Part shown: piece after piece, positions 5,976-59,981 of the stretch
Layout of the letters: each line of letters opens with the position of its first letter
Numbering within the stretch: the first letter of the stretch is position 1
Source of the DNA: a virus
Taxonomy: Duplodnaviria > Caudoviricetes
Reading direction: 5' to 3' (one strand)
DNA length: 61,587 bases
Virus record (IMG/VR): IMGVR_UViG_3300043395_002060
Location: 1-61,587 of that record
Program-made: the position numbers and the translations under genes
Notes under the pieces: generated by a model
Told to the model about the DNA's origin: nothing
The model's database searches: none
The model's input: the letters and a program-made list of their open reading frames with translations, nothing else

Positions 5976-6751
5976 TATATTAATTTGTTTCCTACTATAT
6001 AATTATAAAGTTCTTCACTTATTAGTTTATAACCATCTTTATTAGGGTGTTGTGTTGCTCTAGTATCATATGTAGCATCTTGATATTCCCAAATATCCAA
6101 TCTATTTGTTTTAATTAGAAATTCTCTAAAAGTTTGTTTATTAAATTTCCAATAATAAGTTTTATCTATATTATCGGTAACATCATCTTTTTTATGTAAA
6201 TCAATAAGCATGTTTTCAATACTATCACACATTACATATTTTATGTTATATGATTCAAACAATTTTTGTAAAAAAATTATATAATTTTGATTAACAATAT
6301 TATAATAATTTTGATTAAACAATTCTGCTATAAAAAGATTTTTAAAATCTATTAAGAAATCGTTGTATTTATCATTGTTACTTCTAAATGAGTTTACAAA
6401 TTTTTCCGGCGTTTGTATTAAATGTTTGACACTCCAACTAACCCATTCTCCTTTTGGTAAAAACGGGACATAATCTCTTAAAGATGAACTCCACATAACA
6501 ACAACTAAATCATCTTCTCTTATTCTACCATCTTGCACATCAGTTACAATTTGATTAAATATTTTATTATTAGCATTTCCACTAATACCATTATTGTGAT
6601 GCGATACACCCAATTTATCAGCTAAATACTTTGGCCAAGAATGATTGTTTCTGAATAATCTCTTATCATCTCTATCGGTTAGGGTTCTTTCTATTTCTAT
6701 TTCTGCTCCTTCACCTTCTGTCCAACTACATCCGTATGTGTGTAAAATCAT
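5975..6751 (-). CDS. SGNH/GDSL-like protein
   Basis: GCSWTEG, NNGISGNAN and C-terminal HPNKDGY blocks. Confidence 0.7.
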   Translation of the reverse strand: MILHTYGCSWTEGEGAEIEIERTLTDRDDKRLFRNNHSWPKYLADKLGVSHHNNGISGNANNKIFNQIVTDVQDGRIREDDLVVVMWSSSLRDYVPFLPKGEWVSWSVKHLIQTPEKFVNSFRSNNDKYNDFLIDFKNLFIAELFNQNYYNIVNQNYIIFLQKLFESYNIKYVMCDSIENMLIDLHKKDDVTDNIDKTYYWKFNKQTFREFLIKTNRLDIWEYQDATYDTRATQHPNKDGYKLISEELYNYIVGNKLI

Positions 6752-8445
6752 GCTTTTTTAATTAAATAATTACCTAATACCAAATAATCCATATCACAAT
6801 TTTTGAATGTCCAAATTGCTTTATGTGGGTCATTTGTCATCGTATGTCCTCTTAAATTAAATGATGTATTTAATAAAATGGGAGTGCCACTTATCTTTTC
6901 AAATTCTTTTAATAATGTATGATATAATGGATTTTGTTCTTTTCTAACAGTTTGAATTCTTGCTGAATTATCAACGTGAGTTACTGATGGAATACTTTTA
7001 TATTTGGTAACTTGCACCACTTGATTCATATATGGAACTTCTCCTTCTGAACTAAAATATTTTGTATAATCTTCAATTGTTACCGATGGAGCAAATGGTC
7101 TAAACATTTCTCGTTTCTTAACAACTCTATTAATTCTATCCCTTACATCAGGTAAATGTGGGTTGGCTAATATAGAACGATTGCCTAAAGCTCTTGCACC
7201 AAATTCGGTTCTACCTTGAAACCATCCAACAACTGCTCCATCATTTATTAATTGCGCAACTTCTTTACATAATTTAGAATCATTTTTAATTAATTCTATT
7301 TTTAGTTTTTTATGTTTAGAAATAATATCAAACAATTTAGAATCATTCCATTCCGGTCCTAAATATGGAGATTGGTTATCTCCATTTGGTTTTTTATTAT
7401 GACCTAATACATTATGATATTGATATAGACAAGCGCCAATAGCAGAACCGGCATCGGATGGTGCAGGTGGAATCCATACATTTTTAACCGCCGAATGTTT
7501 CATAATTTTACCATTAGCAGTTCCATTATATGCACAACCACCACTCAATACTAAATTGTGATTATTAGATTGATGAATACAATGATTCACTAAAAAATAA
7601 AATTGAGATTCATACCATCTTTGTAAAGCCGCTGCTAAATCCATATGATGTTGTTCTATATCGGATTCAGGCGTACGTGGTTCGAATCCAATTAGATTGG
7701 CAAGTTTGATATTAAACATAGTTTTATCCGAATATTCCCATTCAAATAAACTCATATTGATATTAATCAATTTTTCAAAATCCAATGATGATATTTTTTC
7801 AAATACATCTCTATATTTCATATAATCACCATATGGTGCTAATCCCATTACTTTATATTCACCACCATTTGGTTTGAAACCCAAATATGCAGTTATAGCT
7901 GAATATACTAATCCCAATGAGTGTGGAAACTTTAATGATTTTATAAATCTGAATTCATTGTTATCACAGCTAACCGCATACATCGTATCCCATTCTCCAA
8001 CACCATCAATTGATATCGCTACCGATTCATCGTATGGTGATGTATAGTGTGCATAAGCTATATGAGAAAGATGATGCTTTGTATAGGTTATAACTCCATT
8101 ATATCCAATCATTTTTAATTTGTTTTGAATATCACCTTCGGTTTCAGCCCATCTTTTTTTAAATTCTTTCCATTGCTTTGGATATCTAAATCCAAACCAT
8201 TTACCAACGGTCTTTTTAACTCTATCGTATTTTACATCGGGTTCTTCATACCAACATACCATATCAACTTCATCTATTGTGATATGCGCATACTCTAATA
8301 CCCACTCTATTGCCTTAAACGGAAAAGAACTATCGTGCTTAATGCCCGATAGTTTCTCTTCTTCTATTGCTGCTACAACCTTACCATCTATAACTAAAGC
8401 TGCTGCTGAATCGTGGTAAAATCCCGATAATCCTAATTGAATCAT
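6748..8445 (-). CDS. carbamoyltransferase (NodU/CmcH/TobZ family)
   Basis: HDSAAAL, HHLSH, DGVGE, EYKVMGLAPYG, EFGARALGNRSILA, KKREMFRPFAP, LNTSFN motifs. Confidence 0.95.
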   Translation of the reverse strand: MIQLGLSGFYHDSAAALVIDGKVVAAIEEEKLSGIKHDSSFPFKAIEWVLEYAHITIDEVDMVCWYEEPDVKYDRVKKTVGKWFGFRYPKQWKEFKKRWAETEGDIQNKLKMIGYNGVITYTKHHLSHIAYAHYTSPYDESVAISIDGVGEWDTMYAVSCDNNEFRFIKSLKFPHSLGLVYSAITAYLGFKPNGGEYKVMGLAPYGDYMKYRDVFEKISSLDFEKLININMSLFEWEYSDKTMFNIKLANLIGFEPRTPESDIEQHHMDLAAALQRWYESQFYFLVNHCIHQSNNHNLVLSGGCAYNGTANGKIMKHSAVKNVWIPPAPSDAGSAIGACLYQYHNVLGHNKKPNGDNQSPYLGPEWNDSKLFDIISKHKKLKIELIKNDSKLCKEVAQLINDGAVVGWFQGRTEFGARALGNRSILANPHLPDVRDRINRVVKKREMFRPFAPSVTIEDYTKYFSSEGEVPYMNQVVQVTKYKSIPSVTHVDNSARIQTVRKEQNPLYHTLLKEFEKISGTPILLNTSFNLRGHTMTNDPHKAIWTFKNCDMDYLVLGNYLIKKA

Positions 8446-18191: not shown

Positions 18192-20456
18192 TTATTTATT
18201 ATGAACTAATATTCCGTTTGCGTAAAAATTATGGTTATCTTCAACAGTAAAGATATATGTTTGAGTATCCCCTAAATCCATTTCAACAATATCTTTAATA
18301 GCCGTTTGTGATTTTGATTCATTTACAAATACTAAATCACCTACTTTTATTTGTCTAACATCTTTTCCAATATTATATCTACTATTTGTTAAGAATGGAG
18401 CGTAAGATGCTAATTCACCATTTCCACCTGCTACAAAGAATGGGTGGTCATATGTACATATAATTTCAGTTTGATTAGCAAATACATATTTAACCATATC
18501 ATCATGTATTGGAGTTTTTACACCAACAACTTTTTTAGATTCGTTTTCTATTCCGTTAAATGATAATACTTCATCACCAATAACAACATCTTCAATATTC
18601 TTTTCAGAACCATCTGCCATTGTTACTTTAGTTCCGGCTACAAAACAAGAACCTCCACCATATTTAAAATTATGAACCAATATACCTTCTGCAAAATATG
18701 TGTGATTATCTTTAACATCTAAAATGTGATACACTTCCACTTCACCACTCAAATCTTGTCTATCTACAATTACTGATTCTGATTTATCTTTCTTAATTAC
18801 AATATCGCCTTTTAAGATATCTTGCGCTGCTACCCAACCTTTTCCTTTGATATAGAATTTATGTAAAGGAGTTGATTTAACAACTGAACCATCACCTGTT
18901 TCTAATTGAATTAATAAGAATTCTTTTTTCTTTAAAATATTTCCAATAGAACCTTCTGCTAAAACACCTGTTTTTTCGTTGTAAGTTAATAACTTATCAT
19001 CGGTTGTTAAATCTTCAATGTTCTTTTCAGTACCATCTGCTAAAGTAATTTTAGTTCCAGCTGGGAAACAGTTGTGTGTTACAATTTTAACACTTAATTC
19101 ACCATTATATAAGAAGTAAGTATCACTTGATTCAACGTCAATAATGTGAGTATGATAATCTCCATCTAAAATTTCACCAATTACCGATTGGATTTCGACT
19201 ACACCACCATTCAAATTGATAAGTTTGTGTTTGGTTTCATCTATTTCAGAAATAGTTTCGTATCTTAATACATCTTTTTCAATATCATAAATCAATAAGT
19301 GTGCTCCACCCGATGCTCTAAAATCAGAGCCATCTACCATTGTTATGTGAAATATAGTATTATTTGATAATTCTTGCTGAATATTATTTACAACAACTGA
19401 AGATGTTTCATATGAACCTGATGGTAAATCAGAACCACCAAAAGACCATTGCATGAATTCCGAAACAACATCAGTATCAGGCGCACCTTCTATAAAATAA
19501 GATTTCAAAGATGTACCAACCGATGCACTACATATTAATACAGGCGTACCATCTTCTTTAACGATTGATTCCTCTTCAAAAATACCACCCCAGTTATTAA
19601 CAGTTGCAAATTTAGGATAATTAGTTGTTAATTCATAATAATGTTTAATATTTGATTGATTAACAAATTGCTCATCATTAAATTCGATAGATGTTGGTTT
19701 TTCAAATAATCCTTCATTTATAAAGCTACCAAATGTAATTACATCCAAATTAGAACCATAAATAGCATTTACAGAACGAATACTTTTAACTTTAGTATCG
19801 GCAGGATTTTCATAAAACTTTATCAACAAATTATTTTCGGGAAAAGATGCCTTTAAACCATCATATCTCGATACTTCGGATAAATTTGAATATCCTATTT
19901 TGACAAATTTAATAGAACTATTAACGTTTGCGTTTAAATCTTTAACAGCCACATCCGGCATTGTAGATGAATTAAATTCTAATGGTAATATATCAGTAAC
20001 ACCCGTTACAGATGATGAAACATAGTATTCAACAATTGAACCGCTATCTCCATTTGAATTAAATAAATCTAAAGGAGCTAATTTATTTTTTGCATATTCC
20101 GAATCAAAAATAGCTGATTCATCATAAGCCAATCTTAAAATAAATTTATTATCCGAATCAGCAATAGTATTTGGATATATAGTTGTATCTTCTTCTAAAT
20201 GATTTTGAAAAAGAGTTATAAACGATGCATTATCTGCTATACTTTGAGATAAAGCATTTATAAATCCACTTTGAAATGATTTAGATATAGTATGTACTTC
20301 GGTTATAGAATTTTGATTCAATACATCAATAAACGATGTAAAATCTAAATTAGTTAAACCACCCGGCGCTATAGCTGTATCGGTATTTATTTCCATTAAA
20401 CGAAGATTTCCATTAACATCTTCGATGAAATCCATTGAAAAAAGAGTTCCTTTCAT
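18192..20456 (-). CDS. protein with N-terminal ATP-grasp-like motif and three tandem Hint (intein-like) domains
   Basis: CFPAGTKITLADG...VHN and CFVAGTKVTMADG...VHN, plus an in-register degenerate GIFEEESIVKEDG...THN; N-terminal MDF...LRLMEINT. Confidence 0.85.
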   Translation of the reverse strand: MKGTLFSMDFIEDVNGNLRLMEINTDTAIAPGGLTNLDFTSFIDVLNQNSITEVHTISKSFQSGFINALSQSIADNASFITLFQNHLEEDTTIYPNTIADSDNKFILRLAYDESAIFDSEYAKNKLAPLDLFNSNGDSGSIVEYYVSSSVTGVTDILPLEFNSSTMPDVAVKDLNANVNSSIKFVKIGYSNLSEVSRYDGLKASFPENNLLIKFYENPADTKVKSIRSVNAIYGSNLDVITFGSFINEGLFEKPTSIEFNDEQFVNQSNIKHYYELTTNYPKFATVNNWGGIFEEESIVKEDGTPVLICSASVGTSLKSYFIEGAPDTDVVSEFMQWSFGGSDLPSGSYETSSVVVNNIQQELSNNTIFHITMVDGSDFRASGGAHLLIYDIEKDVLRYETISEIDETKHKLINLNGGVVEIQSVIGEILDGDYHTHIIDVESSDTYFLYNGELSVKIVTHNCFPAGTKITLADGTEKNIEDLTTDDKLLTYNEKTGVLAEGSIGNILKKKEFLLIQLETGDGSVVKSTPLHKFYIKGKGWVAAQDILKGDIVIKKDKSESVIVDRQDLSGEVEVYHILDVKDNHTYFAEGILVHNFKYGGGSCFVAGTKVTMADGSEKNIEDVVIGDEVLSFNGIENESKKVVGVKTPIHDDMVKYVFANQTEIICTYDHPFFVAGGNGELASYAPFLTNSRYNIGKDVRQIKVGDLVFVNESKSQTAIKDIVEMDLGDTQTYIFTVEDNHNFYANGILVHNK

Positions 20457-50778: not shown

Positions 50779-51258
50779 TTAATCCTTTTTCATTATTCGA
50801 TATCTACGATGTCTTTCTTCTTCACTCATATGATTATCATATGTGTGCCCAATATTAACTTTTATACACAATTCTGGCAATTTTTGGTTTCTAAAATAAT
50901 TGTTTATATAACCTATAATATTTGCCGAACCAATTGGATTAGCTGAATGAACGTAGATTTGTGGTAATGGAATGCTTTTAGCTATTGATTCAGACACCAA
51001 CCATTTAGCACAATCGTATCCCGTCTTTTCCTCTATTCTTTTATAATCCAATTCAAAGTTTGGTTTTGTATTGGTATAATATTCAATCATAGCACTTTCA
51101 CCTAAATCGTGGTCTAATGAAATTACTTCATAATTTTCTAAACCATTTAATCTAATATGTGCTACAAATTCATCATAATTTTTAACAACTTCCCATTCTC
51201 CTTCTGTTGGTATTCGTACATCATCTAAATACAAATACATTTTTTTATTTCTATTCAT
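50779..51258 (-). CDS. cyclic-phosphate-processing Receiver-like domain protein
   Basis: LYLDDVR, ISLDHDLG, TGYDCAKWL, VHSANPIG. Confidence 0.8.
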   Translation of the reverse strand: MNRNKKMYLYLDDVRIPTEGEWEVVKNYDEFVAHIRLNGLENYEVISLDHDLGESAMIEYYTNTKPNFELDYKRIEEKTGYDCAKWLVSESIAKSIPLPQIYVHSANPIGSANIIGYINNYFRNQKLPELCIKVNIGHTYDNHMSEEERHRRYRIMKKD

Positions 51259-52033
51259 CTATAAAATCTATTAATTCTCTATGTAAAAAATCATAATCAA
51301 ATGTGATTGGTTTGTTTATTGGGTCATAACTTAAATCACACGTACATCCATTAAAAGCGTATCCCCATTTTGTTGGTTTATATCCATAACCTTCGTGAAT
51401 GTGACCCGAAAAGTGTAATTGAGGATTAATATCATTTAACCTGTGATATAAATCAGCACATCCTACATTTTCATGTGTTCTCATAGTTTTATCACAATAC
51501 CCATAAATTGGTCCGTGAGTAACTACAATATCGGTATCTTCGGGTATCTGATTCCACATTTGAACCGAATCATTTCCCCTATCTACATTGAATGCCCAAT
51601 TATATCCAAAGGTTGCAGAATAAGGTGAACCCCAAATCTTAATATCCTCTAACATCACATAAGAGTTTTCCAAATAGAATACGTTTGGGTTTAAACTATC
51701 TAATAATTCATTTAACCATTCCGGCTTACCTTCCGATGGTATATGTTCTAATCCCTCGGTTTCCCATACTGAACGTCTACCATCAAAATAATCAATTTTA
51801 TTTTGCATCAAAAATTCGGATTCAAAACTCATATCGTGATTTCCGGCAATGAAAATCTTATACATATAGTTATCAATTCCATTAAACCATTTAATGAAAT
51901 CGGTTACTTCAGATTTTCTACCCAATGAAGATATATCACCGGAGTGAATAAGGATATCTCCGCCTGGCAATCTACCATTCAATTTTTTGTGTTTGTTGTG
52001 GGTATCACTAATATGTGTGATTCTCATTTTCAT
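51251..52033 (-). CDS. calcineurin-like metallophosphoesterase
   Basis: SDTH, HSGD, AGNHD, THGP, SGHIHE. Confidence 0.92.
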   Translation of the reverse strand: MKMRITHISDTHNKHKKLNGRLPGGDILIHSGDISSLGRKSEVTDFIKWFNGIDNYMYKIFIAGNHDMSFESEFLMQNKIDYFDGRRSVWETEGLEHIPSEGKPEWLNELLDSLNPNVFYLENSYVMLEDIKIWGSPYSATFGYNWAFNVDRGNDSVQMWNQIPEDTDIVVTHGPIYGYCDKTMRTHENVGCADLYHRLNDINPQLHFSGHIHEGYGYKPTKWGYAFNGCTCDLSYDPINKPITFDYDFLHRELIDFIDE

Positions 52034-52572: not shown

Positions 52573-52671
52573 TTAGGTTTTTTTCTTAAAAATCCCACGC
52601 TTTTGTTGTTCTTTGCGTGTTTTCTTCGCAATTCTCTTACGATTTTTGTTTATTCTTTCTCTGTTTGTCAT
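52573..52671 (-). CDS. 32-aa highly basic peptide (not in ORF track)
   Basis: MTNRERINKNRKRIAKKTRKEQQKRGIFKKKT between ATACTTAT motif and a terminator hairpin. Confidence 0.5.
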   Translation of the reverse strand: MTNRERINKNRKRIAKKTRKEQQKRGIFKKKT

Positions 52672-52699
52672 AGTAAATTAGTTTATTATCTATAAGTAT

Positions 52700-53377
52700 T
52701 TACTTATAAAAATAACTAATGCCAGACCATTTATTTTCTACAATATCTTTTATTTCAATTCTTTTACCATTGGTATATTTACCTGCTCTAATTTCAGCTA
52801 TCAATTGTGGAACTCCCATATTATCTTCTGAAAGTGCTGTATCGTGAAATCCAACAATTCCACCCGGCTTTACTAATGGATAATATAATAAAAAATCACA
52901 TAATACTGATTCATACGAATGATTACCATCTATGAATAAGAAGTCAATTTCTGAAACTTTTGAATATACATCTGCTATGTTTTTTTCATCATTTGAATAT
53001 CCAACAAAGAATTGAGAACGACCATCATCCAATGTCCAATCACCATAAAACTTTTTCATATTACGGCCAAACTCCCTAATCCTTTCAAAGTTTTTTTCTA
53101 TGGTAATAACTTTATCATATATTTGTCTCCAAAGAAAATGCGTACTACCGAAAAATCCTAATCCGATTTCTAAACATATTTTAGTATCGGATTTAAGTAA
53201 TACATCTATAAATTTAGATAACTCTTCTTTGTTTTGTTGAATACCAACTTCTTCATTTAAGAAATTATTGTGTACTGCATAATATGGATTAAAATCTATT
53301 GGAACATATCCACCATTTCCTTTATCGGAAACCCAATCATCCAATTGAAACAATATTTTTTCGGCTGTCTTATTCAT
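52700..53377 (-). CDS. class I SAM-dependent methyltransferase (Methyltransf_24-like)
   Basis: LEIGLGFFGS, FIDGNHSYE, KPGGIVGFHD. Confidence 0.9.
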   Translation of the reverse strand: MNKTAEKILFQLDDWVSDKGNGGYVPIDFNPYYAVHNNFLNEEVGIQQNKEELSKFIDVLLKSDTKICLEIGLGFFGSTHFLWRQIYDKVITIEKNFERIREFGRNMKKFYGDWTLDDGRSQFFVGYSNDEKNIADVYSKVSEIDFLFIDGNHSYESVLCDFLLYYPLVKPGGIVGFHDTALSEDNMGVPQLIAEIRAGKYTNGKRIEIKDIVENKWSGISYFYK

Positions 53378-53395
53378 TAACTGATTAAATTAAAA

Positions 53396-53548
53396 TGGCT
53401 GTAGCGGAGGGATTCGAACCACTCAAATGGAGATTCAGTTAGTAACACATTCCGGCCGGAAAGGTGGTCTACCCCTATATCACTAACCTATTTCTTTATC
53501 CACACCCCCGAGACAGGAGGGCACGTCTGCCAATTTCGTCACACTACA
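53396..53548 (-). ncRNA. 153-nt tRNA-like RNA with greatly expanded variable region and encoded CCA
   Basis: TGTAGTG/CGCTACA-G-CCA acceptor, D arm, CCCTC-CTGTCTC-GGGGG arm, TTCGAAT T loop. Confidence 0.75.
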
Positions 53549-53553
53549 ATGTG

Positions 53554-53638
53554 CAGAGAGTGAGGGATTCGAACCCCCGTTACCTTTCAGTAAAACAGTT
53601 TTCAAGACTGCCGCCATCAACCTCTCGGCCAACTCTCT
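53554..53638 (-). tRNA. tRNA-Ser(TGA)
   Basis: cloverleaf with long variable arm; GCAGT-CTTGAAA-ACTGT. Confidence 0.92.
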
Positions 53639-54716
53639 ATTTATTAATTAAAAGATTAATTTCATTAACCTTATCAGAGTATATATAATCAAATAATTTA
53701 TTTTTATTATTTTTTGCTTTTTTAACTGCTAAATTATATAAATTATCAAATTCATCATCTGAACAATTTTTCATAAATCTACAAAAATTTTTGTAATTTT
53801 CATAATTTATACCTTCAAATTCTTCATTCAATGTATAATAACCTTTATTTTTCAGTTCTTTTACTAAAAAATCATTTGCATTTACATAGAATGGAGTACT
53901 ATACATCAATCCTTTTGTTGTTTTTTCACTTAAAAAGTACACCATATCATATGTGTAATCTAAAGTCTCTAAAACTAAATTAAATTTACATTTGTTATAA
54001 TCTAATGGATTCGAAAAATGTATAGATGCCGGATTTGCTTCAAAGTGAAAATAATCATTTTCATTGAAAGCTTTTTTGTGAAATCTATCTATATTTTCAA
54101 ATTCTTTTACAGAATTAATTCTACCGATTCTATCTTGAGCTTTAGTATATACAAACACTTTATTCAATCTTTCGGTATTAATATTTAAATAGTAATCATT
54201 TGTAAAATTAAATCCAACTTTAATTGCTCCAAATAATAAACCATAATTGATATCAAAAAAGAATTTATCTAAATTTTTATATTCCCATTGAAACCATTTA
54301 GAGTCATCAATTGTTTTTGATGATGAAAAAAAGTATTTTAAATTTTTATATTCGTAAATACTATATGGATTATTATCCGATATAAATTCGCCTGGGTTAT
54401 ACATTATGGAGTAATCAAAATTTGAAAAATCCATTTTACGTTCTAAATGATTTATTATAAATTCATCAGTTCCACTATCGGTAAATACATAATGCACATA
54501 ATTTTCTTTTGAAAGAGAATTAAGAGTTAAAAATAATTTCTGATTATTGAATATATTTTTTATAAACAATAAATAAAAATCATAATCATTTGCATAATAT
54601 ATTACATATTCATCATTATCATTAATTTTTGTTTTATTTTTACATATATTGTATATAAAAAAAGATGCCGAATCTTTTAATCCACAACAAATAATTTTTT
54701 TATTAATGATATCCAT
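53637..54716 (-). CDS. GT10-like putative glycosyltransferase
   Basis: KFNLVLET...YFLSEKTTKGLMYSTPF. Confidence 0.55.
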   Translation of the reverse strand: MDIINKKIICCGLKDSASFFIYNICKNKTKINDNDEYVIYYANDYDFYLLFIKNIFNNQKLFLTLNSLSKENYVHYVFTDSGTDEFIINHLERKMDFSNFDYSIMYNPGEFISDNNPYSIYEYKNLKYFFSSSKTIDDSKWFQWEYKNLDKFFFDINYGLLFGAIKVGFNFTNDYYLNINTERLNKVFVYTKAQDRIGRINSVKEFENIDRFHKKAFNENDYFHFEANPASIHFSNPLDYNKCKFNLVLETLDYTYDMVYFLSEKTTKGLMYSTPFYVNANDFLVKELKNKGYYTLNEEFEGINYENYKNFCRFMKNCSDDEFDNLYNLAVKKAKNNKNKLFDYIYSDKVNEINLLINK

Positions 54717-54720
54717 TGAT

Positions 54721-54951
54721 TTATAATATTCTTCTACTATTTCTTCTTCTAGCTTCTTCAGCTTCCTTATACCAACGAATCCAAGTTAATGAAATATCGA
54801 TAGGAGCTAATACCCAAGCCATCATCATAACCATAATTGTATCCAATTCAGGTGAGTTGCCAGTTGGTCCTTCATCGTAACGATGTTTATACTTTCGAAA
54901 AAGCTGGAACATACAATAAATGATACAAATTACATAATACGTTATAAACAT
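54721..54951 (-). CDS. small membrane protein
   Basis: two hydrophobic segments. Confidence 0.55.
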   Translation of the reverse strand: MFITYYVICIIYCMFQLFRKYKHRYDEGPTGNSPELDTIMVMMMAWVLAPIDISLTWIRWYKEAEEARRRNSRRIL

Positions 54952-55976: not shown

Positions 55977-57134
55977 TTAATGTGAATCACCTACATTGTG
56001 TTTTTCAGCGAAGATTAAATAATCAGGGTTGATTACCTTTGCTATTTTCTCTCTACCTTTAGATTGATGTTTGATTACAATACCTTCTTCTGGCACTTTA
56101 GTACCTTTGATGTAGTTATTGAATACATACTTATCTTGCACTTCTTGTGACCATCTACCATAATATAATTGCTCCACATATGGTAATTCCAAAATGTGTT
56201 CGATTAACAACTTTGAATTGATTGGGTCTAAATACTCACCTTCCTCTTTTACATCGAATCCTACGAACTCAATCTCTTTTAACCCATAATCATATCCCTT
56301 TTGAATTCCAGCTCCGTAAATCTCACCATATAAGGTAATGCCATCACCAATTTCAGGCTCCATCGCATCACTCTTAACATAATCCCACAACTTTTGTTTG
56401 ATGTTATATTTCTTTTCGATTTCATACCAAACATTAGTATCATAGAATCCATTAGAGTCTGAACCTTTCTCTACATTATGTGAACCAACTACGAATTCAT
56501 ATTCAATCCATTTGTCTGCTAATCCAATGAACTTTCTAATTTTATCCCATAATGATAATTTGTTTTTCTTAACAATACCATAACGGGCATTAGTTCCGTG
56601 AATCTTACGAGTGATTTCAACTGTGTCCTCTTCGGTAAACATTCCCGGCACATTCTTTAAGTTAGGGAATTTGTAATAGACATGGAAGTTTGGATTGTCT
56701 TGATAACGAATCTTTCTACCTCCTGCTAATTGAACCATTTTAACAGGTGGTTCATATTTGAAGATTCCTAAATGAGCCATCATATCATCACCTTCATTAC
56801 AAAAATATCCAATTCCTTTTGCAAAGAATTTTTTCATTTGTGGTAAACTATCTAATGAAATGATTAAACATTCCGAATATACTCCTCTCAACTTTACAGT
56901 TCGAACTCTACCCCCATTTCTCAAATAATTAGTAACACCCAATTCATCCGATAATGTTTGTGGAATAACTGCATCTGTCGTTGTACATACTACCAATTCA
57001 CCTACTTTATGTGCTCCTTTTTTAACAATACAATTCCAACCACCAATAGTTGCTAATTGAATATTATCAGCACCTTCAATTGGTTTGATTTCTTTAATTC
57101 TTGCTACATAGCAAACTGAATTATTATTTTCCAT
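55977..57134 (-). CDS. RNA ligase (Rnl2/DRB0094-like)
   Basis: N-terminal PIEGADNI OB-like domain; KIHGTN, GEIYG, FD, EGIVIK, KVIN motifs. Confidence 0.92.
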   Translation of the reverse strand: MENNNSVCYVARIKEIKPIEGADNIQLATIGGWNCIVKKGAHKVGELVVCTTTDAVIPQTLSDELGVTNYLRNGGRVRTVKLRGVYSECLIISLDSLPQMKKFFAKGIGYFCNEGDDMMAHLGIFKYEPPVKMVQLAGGRKIRYQDNPNFHVYYKFPNLKNVPGMFTEEDTVEITRKIHGTNARYGIVKKNKLSLWDKIRKFIGLADKWIEYEFVVGSHNVEKGSDSNGFYDTNVWYEIEKKYNIKQKLWDYVKSDAMEPEIGDGITLYGEIYGAGIQKGYDYGLKEIEFVGFDVKEEGEYLDPINSKLLIEHILELPYVEQLYYGRWSQEVQDKYVFNNYIKGTKVPEEGIVIKHQSKGREKIAKVINPDYLIFAEKHNVGDSH

Positions 57135-57139
57135 TTCTT

Positions 57140-57559
57140 TTAAAGTTTAATACTGAATCTATCTTTCATTTGTTCTAACTTTTCTTTTGGAACTCCATGT
57201 TGATTTACACCACCATGTCTATTCTCTACAATCAAAGAGAATACTTTGTATCCATATTTTTCAGCTAATTTGAAATAATCTTCCATTTCCCATTCTTGTG
57301 TGAATGTATTAGATACTACGATGTTTGTATAGAATTGTGCATTTGCTTGATTATCTTGCATAAAGGTTTCAACTCTAAACTTACACCAATTGTGTGCTTT
57401 TGGTAAATCTCTTGCATTGAATTTGTATTCGCCAGTTTCTTCATCAACAAAATACATATCTGCTTCACAAATAACATATTCACTCCACATTGCTTCAGCA
57501 AATGTAGATTTACCAGCTCCTGGCAATCCTCTTAATAATATTAAATTTTTTGGTAACAT
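57140..57559 (-). CDS. P-loop polynucleotide kinase-like protein (AAA_33)
   Basis: RGLPGAGKST, VSNTF, HGVP. Confidence 0.85.
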   Translation of the reverse strand: MLPKNLILLRGLPGAGKSTFAEAMWSEYVICEADMYFVDEETGEYKFNARDLPKAHNWCKFRVETFMQDNQANAQFYTNIVVSNTFTQEWEMEDYFKLAEKYGYKVFSLIVENRHGGVNQHGVPKEKLEQMKDRFSIKL

Positions 57560-57560
57560 A

Positions 57561-58214
57561 TTATCTATAATTTTCTACAATTTCGTGATGGTCAAACTCA
57601 AACATACTTTTGATTGGTTGCTTGTCCATCAAACTTAATACAGTTCTCATTTCAATTGGATACAATGCGTTACCATCACATCCCACATCCATCATCTTAC
57701 CCACACCAATTCTTTTATTGGGTGTAAAGTGAACGTGTCCATGTAAGTGAATTGCACCTCTTGCCATATTATCCCAACTTGCAATTGGAAAGTGCATTAA
57801 TGCAAATCGTTGTTCACCGGCAAAGTGTGTTCCCACATTCCATTTAACATTTAAGTTTAGGTATTTATTTACTGAACTGAATAAAGATTGACAATTTTCT
57901 CTATTATTTTCAATGTGATGGTCGTGGTTACCTGTAATGATGTGAATGTTTTTACAAAAGATTTGATTTCTGAATATTTCAATTTGTTCAAATCCACCAA
58001 AACTCCAATCACCTAAATGAAATAGAATATCATCTTGTCCTACAAACTCGTTGATATTAGCAACTAAATGAGCATTCATTTGTTCTAATGACTTGAATTC
58101 TCTACAAGTTACGGGGTCTGTCCACTTTGTTGTGGCAGAACAAATATTAGCATGGTTGTAGTGGGTATCACTGGTGAACCATAATTTCTGTCCTTTATTT
58201 AATGTTAGTTTCAT
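57561..58214 (-). CDS. calcineurin-like metallophosphoesterase
   Basis: TSDTH, HLGD, GNHD, HFP, HGHVH, DVGCD. Confidence 0.92.
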   Translation of the reverse strand: MKLTLNKGQKLWFTSDTHYNHANICSATTKWTDPVTCREFKSLEQMNAHLVANINEFVGQDDILFHLGDWSFGGFEQIEIFRNQIFCKNIHIITGNHDHHIENNRENCQSLFSSVNKYLNLNVKWNVGTHFAGEQRFALMHFPIASWDNMARGAIHLHGHVHFTPNKRIGVGKMMDVGCDGNALYPIEMRTVLSLMDKQPIKSMFEFDHHEIVENYR

Positions 58215-58813
58215 TTTAAAAAACTTATTATTTTTTCTTTAATTCCACTTTGTTTGATTCCTTCTCTACTCGATGGAGTCAATACAAAGTTATCCAAACC
58301 CCAATCGTAATTGTATTCCATACTATAATGCATCTGAACTTTTCCCATATTCAAATCATCAATAGATACCCAATGTGTAATTTCTGGGTGGTCTACCAAA
58401 TATTGTTTGATTTCTATTGAACGGGTTTGTTCTAAATCCATTTCTCTATTCCACGGAAACCCAGCAGGATATTCTTTAGCATAATGAGTACATTCACCCA
58501 AATTCTTTGTGAATGCTATGGGTTTCTTTTTGATGCCCTGTGATTCATAATATTCACCCATCTCATCAACAGTGGCCCATCTTTTCCAATCAGAAGAGAT
58601 AATAATTTCAGCATCAGTTTCTTCCAATATTTCATTTAATATCTTAATTGCTTTCTTATTAAAATTATCAAATCGAGATAGAACTGGCAAAGATGCTACC
58701 GATTGTGATAACTTTCTACCTGCTTCTCTTTGTTTCTTAAATCTACCACCCCATTCGGTTGCTAAACATATAACACCATCGTGGTCTAAAAATATTACTT
58801 TCATAACTTTCAT
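58211..58813 (-). CDS. HAD-family phosphatase (RNA-repair type)
   Basis: IFLDHDGV, ISSDWK, R..EI..YL, VSIDD. Confidence 0.85.
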   Translation of the reverse strand: MKVMKVIFLDHDGVICLATEWGGRFKKQREAGRKLSQSVASLPVLSRFDNFNKKAIKILNEILEETDAEIIISSDWKRWATVDEMGEYYESQGIKKKPIAFTKNLGECTHYAKEYPAGFPWNREMDLEQTRSIEIKQYLVDHPEITHWVSIDDLNMGKVQMHYSMEYNYDWGLDNFVLTPSSREGIKQSGIKEKIISFLK

Positions 58814-59234: not shown

Positions 59235-59239
59235 CATTG

Positions 59240-59902: not shown

Positions 59903-59907
59903 ATATG

Positions 59908-59981
59908 CGGGATGTACGGGATTCGAACCCGTGACCTCCACCGTGACAGGGTGGCATTGTAACCAACTCTACTAACATCCC
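59908..59981 (-). tRNA. tRNA-Asp(GTC)
   Basis: cloverleaf. Confidence 0.93.

What the first reader, a model, noticed from the sequence alone, without database searches (positions are those of the whole stretch)
53396..53548. Giant tRNA-like RNA with an ~80-nt structured variable region
Seen: a proper acceptor stem with encoded CCA (the canonical tRNAs here mostly lack it), a class II-like D arm, an anticodon-like loop CU-GUC-UC with pyrimidine 37, a bulged T stem, and an insert with an 11-bp GUUAGUGAUAU/GUGUUACUAAC helix. A normal Asp(GTC) exists at 59908. It is too short for tmRNA or a group I intron. Inference: a tRNA mimic (decoy for anticodon nucleases or synthetases) or a non-ribosomal aminoacyl donor.
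Basis: partly seen in the sequence, partly recalled or inferred. Interest (0 to 1): 0.7.

Follow-up and report, generated by a model that had tools for sequence, protein, structure and literature searches.

The report
Phage tRNA-shaped RNA with giant arm
This is one member of a large, apparently undescribed family of phage RNAs that fold like a tRNA, always carry the aspartate triplet GUC in a loop unfit for decoding, and bear a huge extra arm whose tip looks built to pair two copies together.

Summary
On the minus strand, 53548-53396, lies a 153-nt RNA with acceptor, D, anticodon-like and T arms, encoded CCA, and a 77-nt variable arm. ARAGORN and Rfam 15 do not call it. It is not a one-off. 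Two independent motif scans of IMG/VR plus a covariance model gave 161 hits, 135 of them distinct sequences. Members score 62-171 bits, all but two at least 99.8; ordinary tRNAs score 52 or less. On the 74 distinct sequences of the first scan, 99.3% of cells pair and 32 of 41 pairs show compensatory changes. Among 133 full-length members, U1-A72, G73 and C74 are invariant. The loop triplet GUC is present in 132 of 133 and C38 in 128 of 132. Position 37 is a pyrimidine in 130 of 132, and U33 occurs in only 80 of 132. The arm tip is a perfect palindrome of at least 6 nt in 127 of 133, in 34 versions. My best reading is a non-decoding tRNA-Asp mimic, processed like a tRNA and probably self-pairing. 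Function and expression are untested. It is absent from cultured phages by blastn, and T4 rnaC/rnaD do not match.

The parts
53396..53548 (-). Whole RNA gene as encoded: 153 nt from U1 at 53548 to A76 at 53396
   Evidence: Read directly. The covariance model R1 scores it 144.7 bits, E 5e-35, over 53398-53548. Element map.
53549..53552 (-). 5' leader ACAU (positions -4 to -1), joining it to tRNA-Ser
   Evidence: Family-wide: A at -4 in 65 of 72, A at -2 in 68 of 72, U or C at -1 in 71 of 72. The 344 ordinary tRNAs of the same loci show the same trend more weakly (64%, 61%, 66% U at -1).
53553..53638 (-). tRNA-Ser(TGA) immediately upstream, with a 4-nt spacer
   Evidence: ARAGORN and RF00005 at 55.6 bits. 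A tRNA lies within 30 nt upstream in 28 of 74 members, and 23 of these are tRNA-Ser.
53542..53548 (-). Acceptor stem, 5' strand UGUAGUG
   Evidence: 7 of 7 pairs form in all 47 first-pass hits. Six of the 7 pairs have compensatory changes; U1-A72 never varies.
53400..53406 (-). Acceptor stem, 3' strand CGCUACA
53396..53399 (-). G73 followed by the encoded C74-C75-A76
   Evidence: A72-G73-C74 is present in 133 of 133 full-length members. A full CCA is encoded in only 8 of 74.
53523..53539 (-). D arm: 3-bp stem ACG/CGU and the loop AAAUUGGCAGA
   Evidence: Two of the 3 pairs have compensatory changes. A14, A15, G18 and G19 are invariant. The window member lacks the extra D-loop hairpin that 84 of 133 members carry.
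53505..53521 (-). Anticodon-like arm: stem CCCUC/GGGGG and loop CUGUCUC
   Evidence: All 5 stem pairs have compensatory changes.
53512..53514 (-). The invariant loop triplet GUC (positions 34-36 in tRNA numbering)
   Evidence: Present in 132 of 133 full-length members. It was part of neither search pattern.
53427..53503 (-). Giant variable arm, 77 nt: three stacked helices separated by internal loops, then a junction
   Evidence: Helices 4-6 have 3 of 4, 1 of 3 and 8 of 9 pairs with compensatory changes.
53489..53492 (-). Internal loop, 5' side AAUA, facing GAA at 53434-53436
   Evidence: Invariant in scan 1 only because the pattern required it. In the independent scan 2 it varies as R-A-Y-A opposite N-A-A.
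53464..53474 (-). Conserved junction block GGGUAGACCAC
   Evidence: GACCAC was required by scan 1 and the whole block by scan 2, so its constancy is partly forced by the search.
53450..53461 (-). Self-complementary tip UUCCGGCCGGAA, a 12-nt perfect palindrome
   Evidence: palindrome of at least 6 nt in 127 of 133, in 34 versions; hairpin -2.8 against self-duplex -24.5 kcal/mol for this member.
53407..53424 (-). T arm: GAG(U)GG / CCCUC and loop UUCGAAU
   Evidence: Four of the 5 pairs have compensatory changes. Loop letters: U, U, C and the fifth-position A are invariant (74 of 74), G in 70 of 74, the last U in 69 of 74; the sixth position varies (A 49, G 14, C 10, U 1).

Best explanation
The locus encodes one member of a widespread family of phage RNAs, 118-185 nt long, that no family I could find describes.

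What the data show:
- Each member is a complete tRNA cloverleaf.
- It sits in the genome like a tRNA gene, often 4 nt behind tRNA-Ser.
- It has the leader and the N73-C74 trailer of these phages' own tRNA genes.

Inferred from this: host RNase P, a 3'-end nuclease and the CCA-adding enzyme mature it as they mature a tRNA.

Its anticodon-type loop always reads GUC. Together with C38 and G73 this gives all five strong aspartate identity determinants. The same loop nevertheless breaks two near-universal rules of decoding tRNAs: position 37 is a pyrimidine and U33 is not conserved. Many members also carry an extra hairpin in the D loop, and all carry a variable arm of about 60-85 nt.

I therefore read it as a non-decoding mimic of tRNA-Asp. 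It would present the aspartate anticodon loop and a tRNA acceptor end to a host protein that recognises tRNA-Asp. Aspartyl-tRNA synthetase is the prime candidate, with the RNA acting either as a substrate (an aspartyl carrier outside translation) or as a competitor.

The tip of the giant arm is a self-complementary 6-12-nt element whose sequence changes between members while its palindromy is kept. The most economical reading is that two copies pair tip to tip and form a symmetric dimer.

Shown: the family, the fold, the invariants and the palindrome. Inferred: processing, dimerisation, the protein partner and the biological role.
For: Family and fold:
- Homologues turned up by synteny in L002 and L003.
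- Scan 1 found 83 members in 120 loci. The independent scan 2 found 76 in 78 new loci.
- Together these give 135 distinct sequences.
- Members score 61.8-171.5 bits, all but two (L202 87.3, L229 61.8) at least 99.8. The best ordinary tRNA scores 52.4.
- Covariation.

tRNA core:
- U8, G9, A14, A15, G18, G19, the T-loop letters U, U, C and the fifth-position A, and the U at position 48 are invariant.

Processing:
- The leader pattern A-N-A-Y and the G73-C74 trailer match those of 344 ordinary tRNAs in the same loci.

Aspartate signals:
- GUC in 132 of 133, C38 in 128 of 132, G73 in 133 of 133, G2-C71 in 71 of 72.
- These match the aspartate set in Giege and Eriani 2023, PMC9976931: 'five strong determinants (G73, G34, U35, C36 and C38)' (passages read).

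Not a decoder:
- Position 37 is U in 118, C in 12 and A in 2. Position 33 is U in 80, C in 39, A in 12 and G in 1.
- The window's own tRNA-Asp has U33 and A37.
- Normal tRNA-Asp genes coexist with the RNA in the window, L094 and L137.

Self-pairing tip:
- A palindrome of at least 8 nt occurs in 113 of 133, against 6.7% of shuffles.
- The innermost letters covary as Watson-Crick partners in 62 of 62 sequences, which a hairpin loop does not require.
- Two of 7 tips tested, both 8-nt types, are predicted to form no hairpin at all. Self-duplexes are 15-20 kcal/mol more stable than hairpins.
- The same argument, palindrome switching in a loop, was used and confirmed by cryo-EM for the OLE and GOLLD RNAs (PMC12286853, passages read).

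Independence from translation:
- 46 of 74 members have no tRNA within 30 nt upstream.
- 29 of 74 have no tRNA gene called within 1.5 kb on either side.

Copy number:
- One copy in each of 3 complete phage genomes of 245-321 kb with terminal repeats.
- None of the three encodes a class IIb synthetase core, so any charging would depend on the host enzyme.
Against: - There is no evidence of expression, of the RNA's ends, of charging or of dimerisation.
- The first base pair is U1-A72 in all members. The phages' own tRNA-Asp has G1-C72 in 18 of 20. The review calls G1-C72 strictly conserved in bacterial tRNA-Asp and important for placing the 3' end in AspRS.
- G10, a bacterial aspartate determinant, is present in only 39 of 72.
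- From memory, class II synthetases approach tRNA from the variable-loop side, so a giant arm there might block AspRS rather than help it.
- G73, G2-C71 and a large variable arm are also part of the serine identity set. Serylation is therefore not excluded.
- The palindrome could still be a short hairpin whose tetraloop happens to be symmetric. It is missing or at most 4 nt in 6 of 133.
- No protein gene is a constant neighbour. The largest neighbour cluster covers 19 of 74 loci.
- All members come from metagenomic contigs found by motif scans. Relatives lacking those motifs were not sampled.
Confidence: 0.5

Rival explanations
1. tRNA-framed RNA. The tRNA part is only a handle for processing, stability and CCA addition. 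The working part is the giant arm and its self-pairing tip, for example as an assembly or scaffold RNA. The GUC loop would then be conserved because it contacts the invariant GAC of the arm junction or a phage protein, not because of aspartate identity.
For: - The same phages carry arrays of other RNAs with one constant tRNA-like frame and hypervariable insides: 47 units in 20 loci. These phages therefore do use tRNA frames around non-tRNA cargo.
- GUC and the GAC of the junction block are complementary, and both are invariant.
- Palindromic tips point to RNA-RNA assembly, as in the phage-associated GOLLD and ROOL RNAs, which sit near tRNA islands.
- Among the 62 distinct D-loop inserts, 17 are also perfect palindromes of at least 8 nt, against 7.6% of shuffles. 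This hints at a second self-contact.
Against: - The five aspartate determinants sit exactly at tRNA positions 34-36, 38 and 73. That would be a coincidence under this reading.
- A GUC/GAC contact cannot be tested by covariation because neither side varies.
- No tertiary covariation outside the helices was found.
Confidence: 0.2
2. Decoy or sponge for a host defence nuclease or tRNA-modifying toxin that attacks the tRNA-Asp anticodon loop or the acceptor end. This is a special case of the mimic reading in which the partner is a defence protein rather than AspRS.
For: - The window carries an RNA-repair gene set around the tRNA genes:
  - an Rnl1-type ligase at 55977-57134;
  - a P-loop kinase at 57140-57559;
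  - two metallophosphoesterases at 57561-58214 and 51251-52033;
  - HAD_SAK_2 at 58211-58813;
  - a cyclic-phosphate-processing receiver domain at 50779-51258.
  Such sets answer anticodon nucleases in T4 (recalled).
- A metallophosphoesterase recurs near the RNA in 12 of 74 loci.
- A loop that cannot decode would be harmless if cut.
Against: - I know of no defence nuclease aimed specifically at tRNA-Asp (from memory; none was met in the listings or in the passages read).
- The repair genes are not constant neighbours.
- A decoy would not obviously need a 77-nt conserved arm or a self-pairing tip.
Confidence: 0.12
3. A working but unusual elongator tRNA-Asp, or a tRNA whose variable-arm insert is removed as an intron to give a normal-sized tRNA.
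For: - The cloverleaf and core are complete, the triplet is GUC, and it is placed among tRNA genes.
- With introns allowed, ARAGORN reports tRNA parses for some of the 85 members (28 output lines, one of them the summary line).
- Ligase and end-healing enzymes are encoded nearby in the window.
Against: - A pyrimidine at 37 in 130 of 132 and a non-U at 33 in 52 of 132 argue against decoding.
- A normal tRNA-Asp is present as well.
- ARAGORN's intron parses disagree on the anticodon (Asn, Asp, Cys and Leu among the 12 rows printed). They also use the 3' strand of a helix that 8 of 9 covarying pairs support.
- The insert lies in the variable region, not in the anticodon loop. It shows no match to any Rfam intron or ribozyme family.
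- Even without the insert, the loop defects would remain.
Confidence: 0.08
4. A serine-accepting class II tRNA relative, charged by SerRS as tRNA-Sec is. SerRS ignores the anticodon and reads G73, the acceptor stem and a long variable arm.
For: - G73 is invariant, G2-C71 occurs in 71 of 72, R4-Y69 in 58 of 72, and the variable arm is large.
- 23 of 74 members sit within 30 nt (3-13 nt) behind a tRNA-Ser gene.
- The D arm is of class II type.
Against: - C72 is replaced by A72 in all members, and C11-G24 occurs in only 27 of 72.
- SerRS recognition would not explain why GUC and C38 are invariant.
- The body is closest to tRNA-Leu (about 40 bits) rather than to tRNA-Ser (25-31 bits) under model R1.
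Confidence: 0.08

Closest known systems
Phage T4 species 1 and species 2 RNAs (rnaC, rnaD)
   Same: They are stable RNAs of about 120-140 nt encoded inside a phage tRNA gene cluster. rnaC ends with a T-arm-like GGUUCGAAUCC hairpin (read; annotation). From memory, their function has stayed unknown for decades.
   Different: There is no detectable homology. Model R1 hits only T4 tRNA-Leu and tRNA-Gln in that locus at E up to 1, not rnaC or rnaD. I could not find a full cloverleaf with a GUC loop or the giant-arm motifs in them by eye.
Class II tRNAs and tRNA-Sec / allo-tRNAs (long variable arm)
   Same: The D stem has 3 bp and an extra arm emerges between the anticodon and T arms. The acceptor/T geometry is 7/5. 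The best non-member hits of R1 are tRNA-Leu (about 40 bits).
   Different: - The arm is about 60-85 nt with internal loops and a junction, against roughly 10-25 nt in those tRNAs (recalled; class II is 'more than 10' in PMC7609411).
- The loop lacks a purine at 37.
- The triplet is GUC, not a Ser, Leu, Tyr or Sec anticodon.
[quoted passage not shown]
Bacterial tRNA-Asp
   Same: It has the same loop letters C32, G34, U35, C36 and C38, and the same G73 and G2-C71. The window's tRNA-Asp loop is CUGUCAC against CUGUCUC here.
   Different: It has U1-A72 instead of G1-C72, U37 instead of A37, a class II D arm and a giant variable arm. RF00005 and ARAGORN do not recognise it.
tRNA mimics: tmRNA, bacterial Y RNA (YrlA), viral tRNA-like structures
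   Same: All are tRNA-like modules joined to a non-tRNA domain, and some are processed or charged by tRNA enzymes (recalled).
   Different: - ARAGORN finds no tmRNA, and position 3-70 is U-A rather than G-U.
- No Rfam family of these kinds matches; the Tymo_tRNA-like hit has E = 4.3 and lies mostly on tRNA-Ser.
- Here the cloverleaf is complete and the extra domain sits in the variable region.
GOLLD, ROOL and OLE RNAs (homo-oligomeric natural RNAs)
   Same: They are phage- or prophage-encoded and often lie near tRNA islands. Symmetric intermolecular contacts are supported by loop palindromes that switch sequence (PMC12286853, passages read).
   Different: Those RNAs are several-fold larger (GOLLD often over 800 nt; about 580 nt for ROOL from memory), are not tRNA-shaped, and have their own Rfam families (recalled). 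None of these matches here.

Membership tests
Canonical elongator tRNA (Rfam RF00005) | Cloverleaf with a 7-bp acceptor stem, D, anticodon and T arms, and the conserved core U8, A14, G18G19 and T loop | tested here: met
   all four arms covary and the core letters are invariant.
Canonical elongator tRNA (Rfam RF00005) | U33 and a purine at position 37 in the anticodon loop | tested here: not met
   U33 in 80 of 132; a purine at 37 in 2 of 132.
Canonical elongator tRNA (Rfam RF00005) | Recognised by the tRNA model or by ARAGORN at default settings | tested here: not met
   No RF00005 hit on 53396-53548 even at E up to 10. ARAGORN at default settings finds 0 of 85 members.
tRNA-Asp identity set (substrate of AspRS) | The strong determinants G73, G34, U35, C36 and C38 | tested here: met
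   133 of 133, 132 of 133 for the triplet, and 128 of 132. The set is defined in PMC9976931.
tRNA-Asp identity set (substrate of AspRS) | The bacterial extras G10, G1-C72 and G2-C71 | tested here: inconclusive
   G10 in 39 of 72; G1-C72 in 0 of 72 (always U1-A72); G2-C71 in 71 of 72.
tRNA-Asp identity set (substrate of AspRS) | Actual aspartylation | not testable with these tools
   This needs an aminoacylation assay.
tmRNA | tRNA-Ala-like acceptor with G3-U70 plus a tag reading frame | tested here: not met
   Position 3-70 is U-A in 69 of 72. ARAGORN reports no tmRNA.
tRNA-Sec / allo-tRNA | An acceptor/T geometry of 8/5, 9/4, 8/4 or 9/3 | tested here: not met
   7 + 5 pairs. The base at -1 is a pyrimidine in 71 of 72, but ordinary tRNAs of the same loci show the same bias.
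T4 rnaC / rnaD | Sequence or structure homology | tested here: not met
   No R1 hit on L194 1909-2172 at E up to 1.
Symmetric self-pairing RNAs (as OLE, GOLLD) | A loop or tip palindrome that changes sequence but stays palindromic | tested here: met
   34 distinct palindromes of at least 6 nt in 127 of 133. The centre letters covary as Watson-Crick partners in 62 of 62.
Symmetric self-pairing RNAs (as OLE, GOLLD) | Physical oligomer | not testable with these tools
   Only nearest-neighbour energies of the isolated tips were computed.

The most novel reading that the evidence does not exclude
A self-pairing, two-headed tRNA mimic that engages the dimeric host aspartyl-tRNA synthetase and is aspartylated without ever entering the ribosome. 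Every member has U1-A72, the pair that marks Asp-tRNA(Asn) for the GatCAB amidotransferase, instead of the G1-C72 that blocks it on tRNA-Asp (PMC9976931). All 4 Bacteroidota bins that hold members encode GatB. The RNA could therefore be a phage-run carrier on which Asp is made into Asn outside translation, or a trap for both enzymes.
Probability: 0.1. Interest if true: 0.95.

Novelty: new variant of a known kind. Interest (0 to 1): 0.8.

Why it matters
Phage tRNA genes are usually explained by codon supply or by escape from anticodon nucleases. This is a conserved, single-copy, tRNA-shaped RNA that keeps a full amino-acid identity signal yet looks deliberately unfit for decoding. It also carries a large structured arm with a probable dimerisation site.

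If it is expressed, it would be a new way for phages to touch the host's tRNA-handling machinery (synthetase, amidotransferase, nuclease or processing enzymes). It would also be the first natural tRNA-shaped RNA I am aware of that pairs with itself.

It offers a compact, about 150-nt test case for the recently recognised self-assembly of phage-linked RNAs. It also shows that tRNA finders and Rfam miss a family present in well over a hundred viral contigs.

Tried and rejected
- **Rfam.** Gathering thresholds over the whole window and E up to 10 over 53300-53700 gave only sub-threshold chance hits overlapping the RNA: SNORD2, sX4 and Tymo_tRNA-like.
- **Exact 29-mer.** A scan of IMG/VR with the T arm and acceptor end found 0 hits.
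- **Cultured phages.** blastn of the window region and of two other members against 50,697 phage records matched only the tRNA-Ser or T-arm parts (in one search the second match group ran from the T arm to the 3' end of the query). At that sensitivity the RNA is not in cultured phages.
- **T4 rnaC/rnaD.** Fetched, read and searched with R1; no match.
- **Conserved protein partner.** I clustered 660 ORFs within 4 kb of 74 members. The largest cluster covers 19 loci. The annotated ones are a terminase, an exonuclease and a metallophosphoesterase, and none is universal.
- **Tertiary covariation.** Mutual information over all column pairs found none beyond the helices and the tip.
- **Eighth acceptor pair (-1 with G73).** Rejected as special, because ordinary tRNAs share the U at -1 bias.
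- **Hammerhead or other ribozyme in the arm.** No Rfam match, and by eye no conserved hammerhead core.
- **Promoter and terminator scan of 52600-54900.** Nothing above the shuffled expectation.
- **Phage-encoded enzymes.** In three complete genomes (245-321 kb) plus the window: class IIb synthetase core in 0 of the 3 complete genomes (the window was not among the handles), GatB in 0 of 4, asparagine synthase in 1 of 4.
- **Expression.** No RNA holder is listed for this stretch. Two runs labelled RNA-Seq but judged 'probably DNA' have contigs that cover mainly 53387-53641. I do not count this as expression.
- **Host.** Six true members lie on 529-2848-nt contigs of Bacteroidota bins. This is a weak hint only, since such short contigs may be mis-binned phage fragments. 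The seventh pattern hit (Sedimentisphaerales) is not a member.
- **Literature.** Five full-text searches and passages of four papers turned up no description of this RNA.
  - Fremin et al. 2023 (PMC10690425) list 10,006 candidate viral RNAs. One of them, DNAVirus_1850, has 27 copies, and one copy overlaps an ARAGORN tRNA-Asp call.
Full report
**What is at the coordinates.**
- The window is a 61,587-base IMG/VR virus record, estimated 32% complete. All its genes in this part lie on the minus strand.
- Read on that strand, bases 53548 to 53396 form a 153-nt tRNA-like RNA (element map):
  - a 7-bp acceptor stem, UGUAGUG/CGCUACA;
  - U8 and G9;
  - a 3-bp D stem with an 11-nt loop containing GG;
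  - a 5-bp stem with the 7-nt loop CUGUCUC;
  - a 77-nt arm;
  - a T arm with one bulged U and the loop UUCGAAU;
  - then G73 and CCA.
- It starts 4 nt after a tRNA-Ser(TGA) gene (53638-53553). It ends 18 nt before a 225-aa methyltransferase-like ORF (53377-52700).
- ARAGORN lists 13 tRNAs in the window but not this one. Rfam 15 gives 13 tRNA matches and nothing here. Even at E up to 10, only sub-threshold chance matches overlap it.
- Its folding energy alone is unremarkable: z = -0.35.

**It is a family.**
- The gene downstream led to two relatives in other viral contigs that have the same RNA in the same place. L002 is 81% identical. L003 is 73% identical and has an extra hairpin in the D loop. 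Two more distant relatives, L004 and L005, lack the RNA at that place.
- Scan 1 used three short motifs shared by the first three copies.
- All 47 hits that also had a T loop showed 7 of 7 acceptor pairs. The 44 distinct ones were aligned (A1). RNAalifold gave 41 pairs, 32 of them with changes on both sides.
- A covariance model built from this alignment (R1) separates members from everything else. In the scan-1 loci, members score 114.8-171.5 bits, while the best other hit is 52.4 bits and ordinary tRNAs score 13-44.
- 83 of the 120 scanned loci hold a member.
- Scan 1 forced three motifs to be constant. I therefore ran scan 2 with a different anchor, the junction block plus the T loop.
78 of its loci were new, and 76 of these hold a member scoring 61.8-166 bits.
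  - 61 of the sequences were new. In these, the scan-1 motifs are present in only 19 and 17 of 61.
- In all there are 161 hits and 135 distinct sequences; 133 are full length, at 118-185 nt.
- A scan of 185,579 prokaryote genomes added six true members. All six are on 529-2848-nt contigs of Bacteroidota bins.
- Three complete phage genomes of 245, 289 and 321 kb with terminal repeats each hold exactly one copy.

**The fold.**
- On the 74 distinct sequences of the first set, 99.3% of 3007 cells form standard pairs, against 80.9% in shuffles.
- 32 of 41 pairs have changes on both sides, and 575 cells carry such a change against 164 expected.
- No shuffle out of 500 reaches any of the five measures. 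Sliding the 3' partners by 1-3 columns drops pairing to 42-53%.
- Every helix is supported: acceptor 6 of 7 pairs, D stem 2 of 3, anticodon-like stem 5 of 5, the three arm helices 3 of 4, 1 of 3 and 8 of 9, and T stem 4 of 5.
- The letters that build the tRNA core are invariant: U8, A14, A15, G18, G19, the U at position 48, and U, U, C and the fifth-position A of the T loop. This is a genuine L-shaped tRNA body.
- Under R1 the body is closest to tRNA-Leu (about 40 bits) and next to tRNA-Asp (33 bits).
- 84 of 133 members carry an added hairpin in the D loop.

**Signs that it is matured like a tRNA.**
- Upstream of U1 the leader reads A at -4 (65 of 72), A at -2 (68 of 72) and U or C at -1 (71 of 72).
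- The 344 distinct ordinary tRNAs in the same loci show the same preferences more weakly: 64%, 61% and 66% U.
- After G73 comes C in all members. The next base varies, so a full CCA is encoded in only 8 of 74.
- The ordinary tRNA genes do the same. 299 of 344 ARAGORN calls end in a C, which is followed by A in 264 of 344, and 44 have CCA.
- I infer, but have not shown, that RNase P, a 3'-end nuclease and the CCA-adding enzyme handle this RNA as they handle the phage's tRNAs.

**The loop.**
- Neither scan pattern included the anticodon-like arm. Even so, the triplet GUC is present in 132 of 133 full-length members, C38 in 128 of 132, G73 in 133 of 133 and G2-C71 in 71 of 72.
- According to Giege and Eriani (PMC9976931; passages read), aspartate identity rests on 'five strong determinants (G73, G34, U35, C36 and C38)'. 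All five are here.
- Position 37 is U in 118, C in 12 and A in 2 of 132. Position 33 is U in only 80 of 132.
- The window's real tRNA-Asp has U33 and A37.
- From general knowledge, U33 and a purine at 37 are near-universal in decoding tRNAs. A family that has lost both while keeping GUC is unlikely to work in the ribosomal A site.
- Two further differences from tRNA-Asp count against easy charging:
  - The first pair is U1-A72 in every member, whereas the phages' own tRNA-Asp has G1-C72 in 18 of 20.
  - G10 is present in only 39 of 72.

**The arm and its tip.**
- The arm is a rod of three helices separated by two internal loops.
- The second internal loop (AAUA opposite GAA in the window) varies in the unbiased set as R-A-Y-A opposite N-A-A. 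It resembles, from memory, the UAA/GAN internal-loop motif. I did not test this.
- The rod ends in a junction with the conserved block GGGU(A/U)GACCAC, followed by a short element that is a perfect palindrome.
  - It is at least 6 nt in 127 of 133 members and at least 8 nt in 113 of 133. There are 34 different sequences, for example GCUUGCAAGC, GCCGGCCGGC, AGCCGGCU, GCGCGC and GCUAGCUAGC. The window's own is UUCCGGCCGGAA.
  - Shuffled tips reach 8 nt in 6.7% of trials.
- A hairpin needs complementary arms but not a self-complementary centre. Here the centre is always self-complementary, and its outer letters covary as Watson-Crick partners in 62 of 62 sequences.
- For the 8-nt versions no hairpin is predicted at all. 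For the seven tips tested, the self-duplex is 15-20 kcal/mol more stable than the hairpin.
- Kretsch et al. used the same reasoning for OLE and GOLLD RNAs, where loop palindromes that switch sequence mark symmetric contacts between chains seen by cryo-EM. Those RNAs are also phage-linked and sit near tRNA islands (PMC12286853; passages read).
- I therefore think two copies pair tip to tip. This is inference.
- Among the 62 distinct D-loop inserts, 17 are also perfect palindromes of at least 8 nt (7.6% in shuffles). Some members might thus have a second self-contact. That is tentative.

**Context.**
- 28 of 74 members have a tRNA within 30 nt upstream, and 23 of these are tRNA-Ser. 46 have none, and 29 have no tRNA gene called within 1.5 kb on either side. 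The RNA is thus kept even where there is no tRNA array.
- No protein family is a constant neighbour.
- In the window itself the RNA lies among RNA-repair genes: a ligase, a kinase, two phosphoesterases, a HAD 'Swiss army knife' domain and a cyclic-phosphate receiver domain. This suits a conflict over tRNAs, but the link is not general.
- The three complete genomes encode no class IIb synthetase core. Neither they nor the window encode GatB.
- The phage's DNA is found in freshwater, reservoir, aquatic and estuary metagenomes of 10 studies.
- The closest cultured phages are very distant. The RNA ligase is at most 28% identical among the 15 records listed, and under 60% in all 402 matching records.

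**What it most likely does.**
- I commit to a non-decoding tRNA-Asp mimic, matured by the tRNA pathway and probably dimeric. It would offer the aspartate loop and a tRNA 3' end to a host protein. AspRS, itself a dimer (recalled), is the first candidate.
- I cannot tell whether the RNA is charged or merely binds.
- Rivals:
  - The tRNA part is only a processing handle, and the arm is the working part.
  - It is a decoy for a defence nuclease or transferase.
  - It is an odd decoding tRNA or an intron-bearing tRNA.
  - It is a SerRS substrate.
- The boldest reading left open uses the invariant U1-A72. That pair marks Asp-tRNA(Asn) for amidation and is replaced by the blocking G1-C72 in tRNA-Asp. 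The four Bacteroidota bins that hold members all encode GatB. An aspartylated copy could therefore be turned into an asparaginyl one off the ribosome.

**Comparison with what is known, and novelty.**
- It fails membership in canonical tRNA (loop rules, size, detection), tmRNA, tRNA-Sec and allo-tRNA (7/5 geometry), and T4 rnaC/rnaD (no R1 hit).
- It works most like a tRNA mimic. In its tip it resembles the self-assembling phage-linked RNAs.
- I found no description in five literature searches or in the passages read.
- I rate it a new variant of a known kind (phage tRNA-like RNAs) with high interest, limited mainly by the lack of any expression or biochemical evidence.

Noticed in passing
L124 5100-8300 (minus strand); also L094, L137, L140, L227, L246, L263 and others: A second, different set of tRNA-framed RNAs lies in the same phages. 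There are 47 units (43 distinct) in 20 of the fetched loci, up to 7 per locus, each 70-180 nt. All share nearly the same acceptor stem (AGUCAGG/CCUGACU), a tRNA-Leu-like D arm, one T arm, then A73 and mostly C (a few end AU, UC or GC). The inside, 20-130 nt, is hypervariable and has no recognisable anticodon arm. Seventy further copies of the 5' frame alone were seen, some directly before ORFs. The window itself has none.
   Followed up: partly
all member loci; in the window e.g. 59905-59907, 59237-59239, 53551-53553: The ordinary tRNA genes of these phages encode N73-C74-A rather than CCA. 299 of 344 distinct ARAGORN calls end in a C, which is followed by A in 264 of 344, and only 44 have CCA. 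In the window, 12 of 13 tRNAs show the single C and only tRNA-His has CCA.
   Followed up: partly
window 50779-52033 and 55977-58813, minus strand: An RNA-repair gene set flanks the RNA and the tRNA cluster. It consists of a cREC_REC cyclic-phosphate receiver domain, two metallophosphoesterases, an Rnl1-type RNA ligase, an AAA_33 kinase and a HAD_SAK_2 domain protein.
   Followed up: partly
D-loop insert of 84 of 133 family members (absent in the window copy): The optional hairpin inserted in the D loop is itself a perfect palindrome of at least 8 nt in 17 of 62 distinct inserts, against 7.6% of shuffles. This is so mostly in the short inserts. It is a possible second self-pairing site.
   Followed up: partly
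window 53448-53583: In two DNA metagenome runs the summed contig depth peaks over the RNA and the start of tRNA-Ser (401-740 and 140-516, against about 37-119 and 0-34 in the flanking bins). This suggests several co-occurring phages share this stretch while their flanks differ.
   Followed up: no
window 18192-20456, minus strand: A 754-aa ORF has intein/Hint splicing domains in its C-terminal half. The host protein of the intein was not identified.
   Followed up: no
window 6748-8445, minus strand: A 565-aa carbamoyltransferase (Carbam_trans_N and Carbam_trans_C, E 1e-61 and 4e-65) is an unusual auxiliary gene for a phage.
   Followed up: no
family members: With introns allowed, ARAGORN reports tRNA parses with a 73-89-nt 'intron' for some of the 85 members (28 output lines, one the summary line). 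The anticodons are inconsistent (Asn, Asp, Cys and Leu among the rows printed). Automatic annotation could mislabel this family as intron-containing tRNAs.
   Followed up: yes
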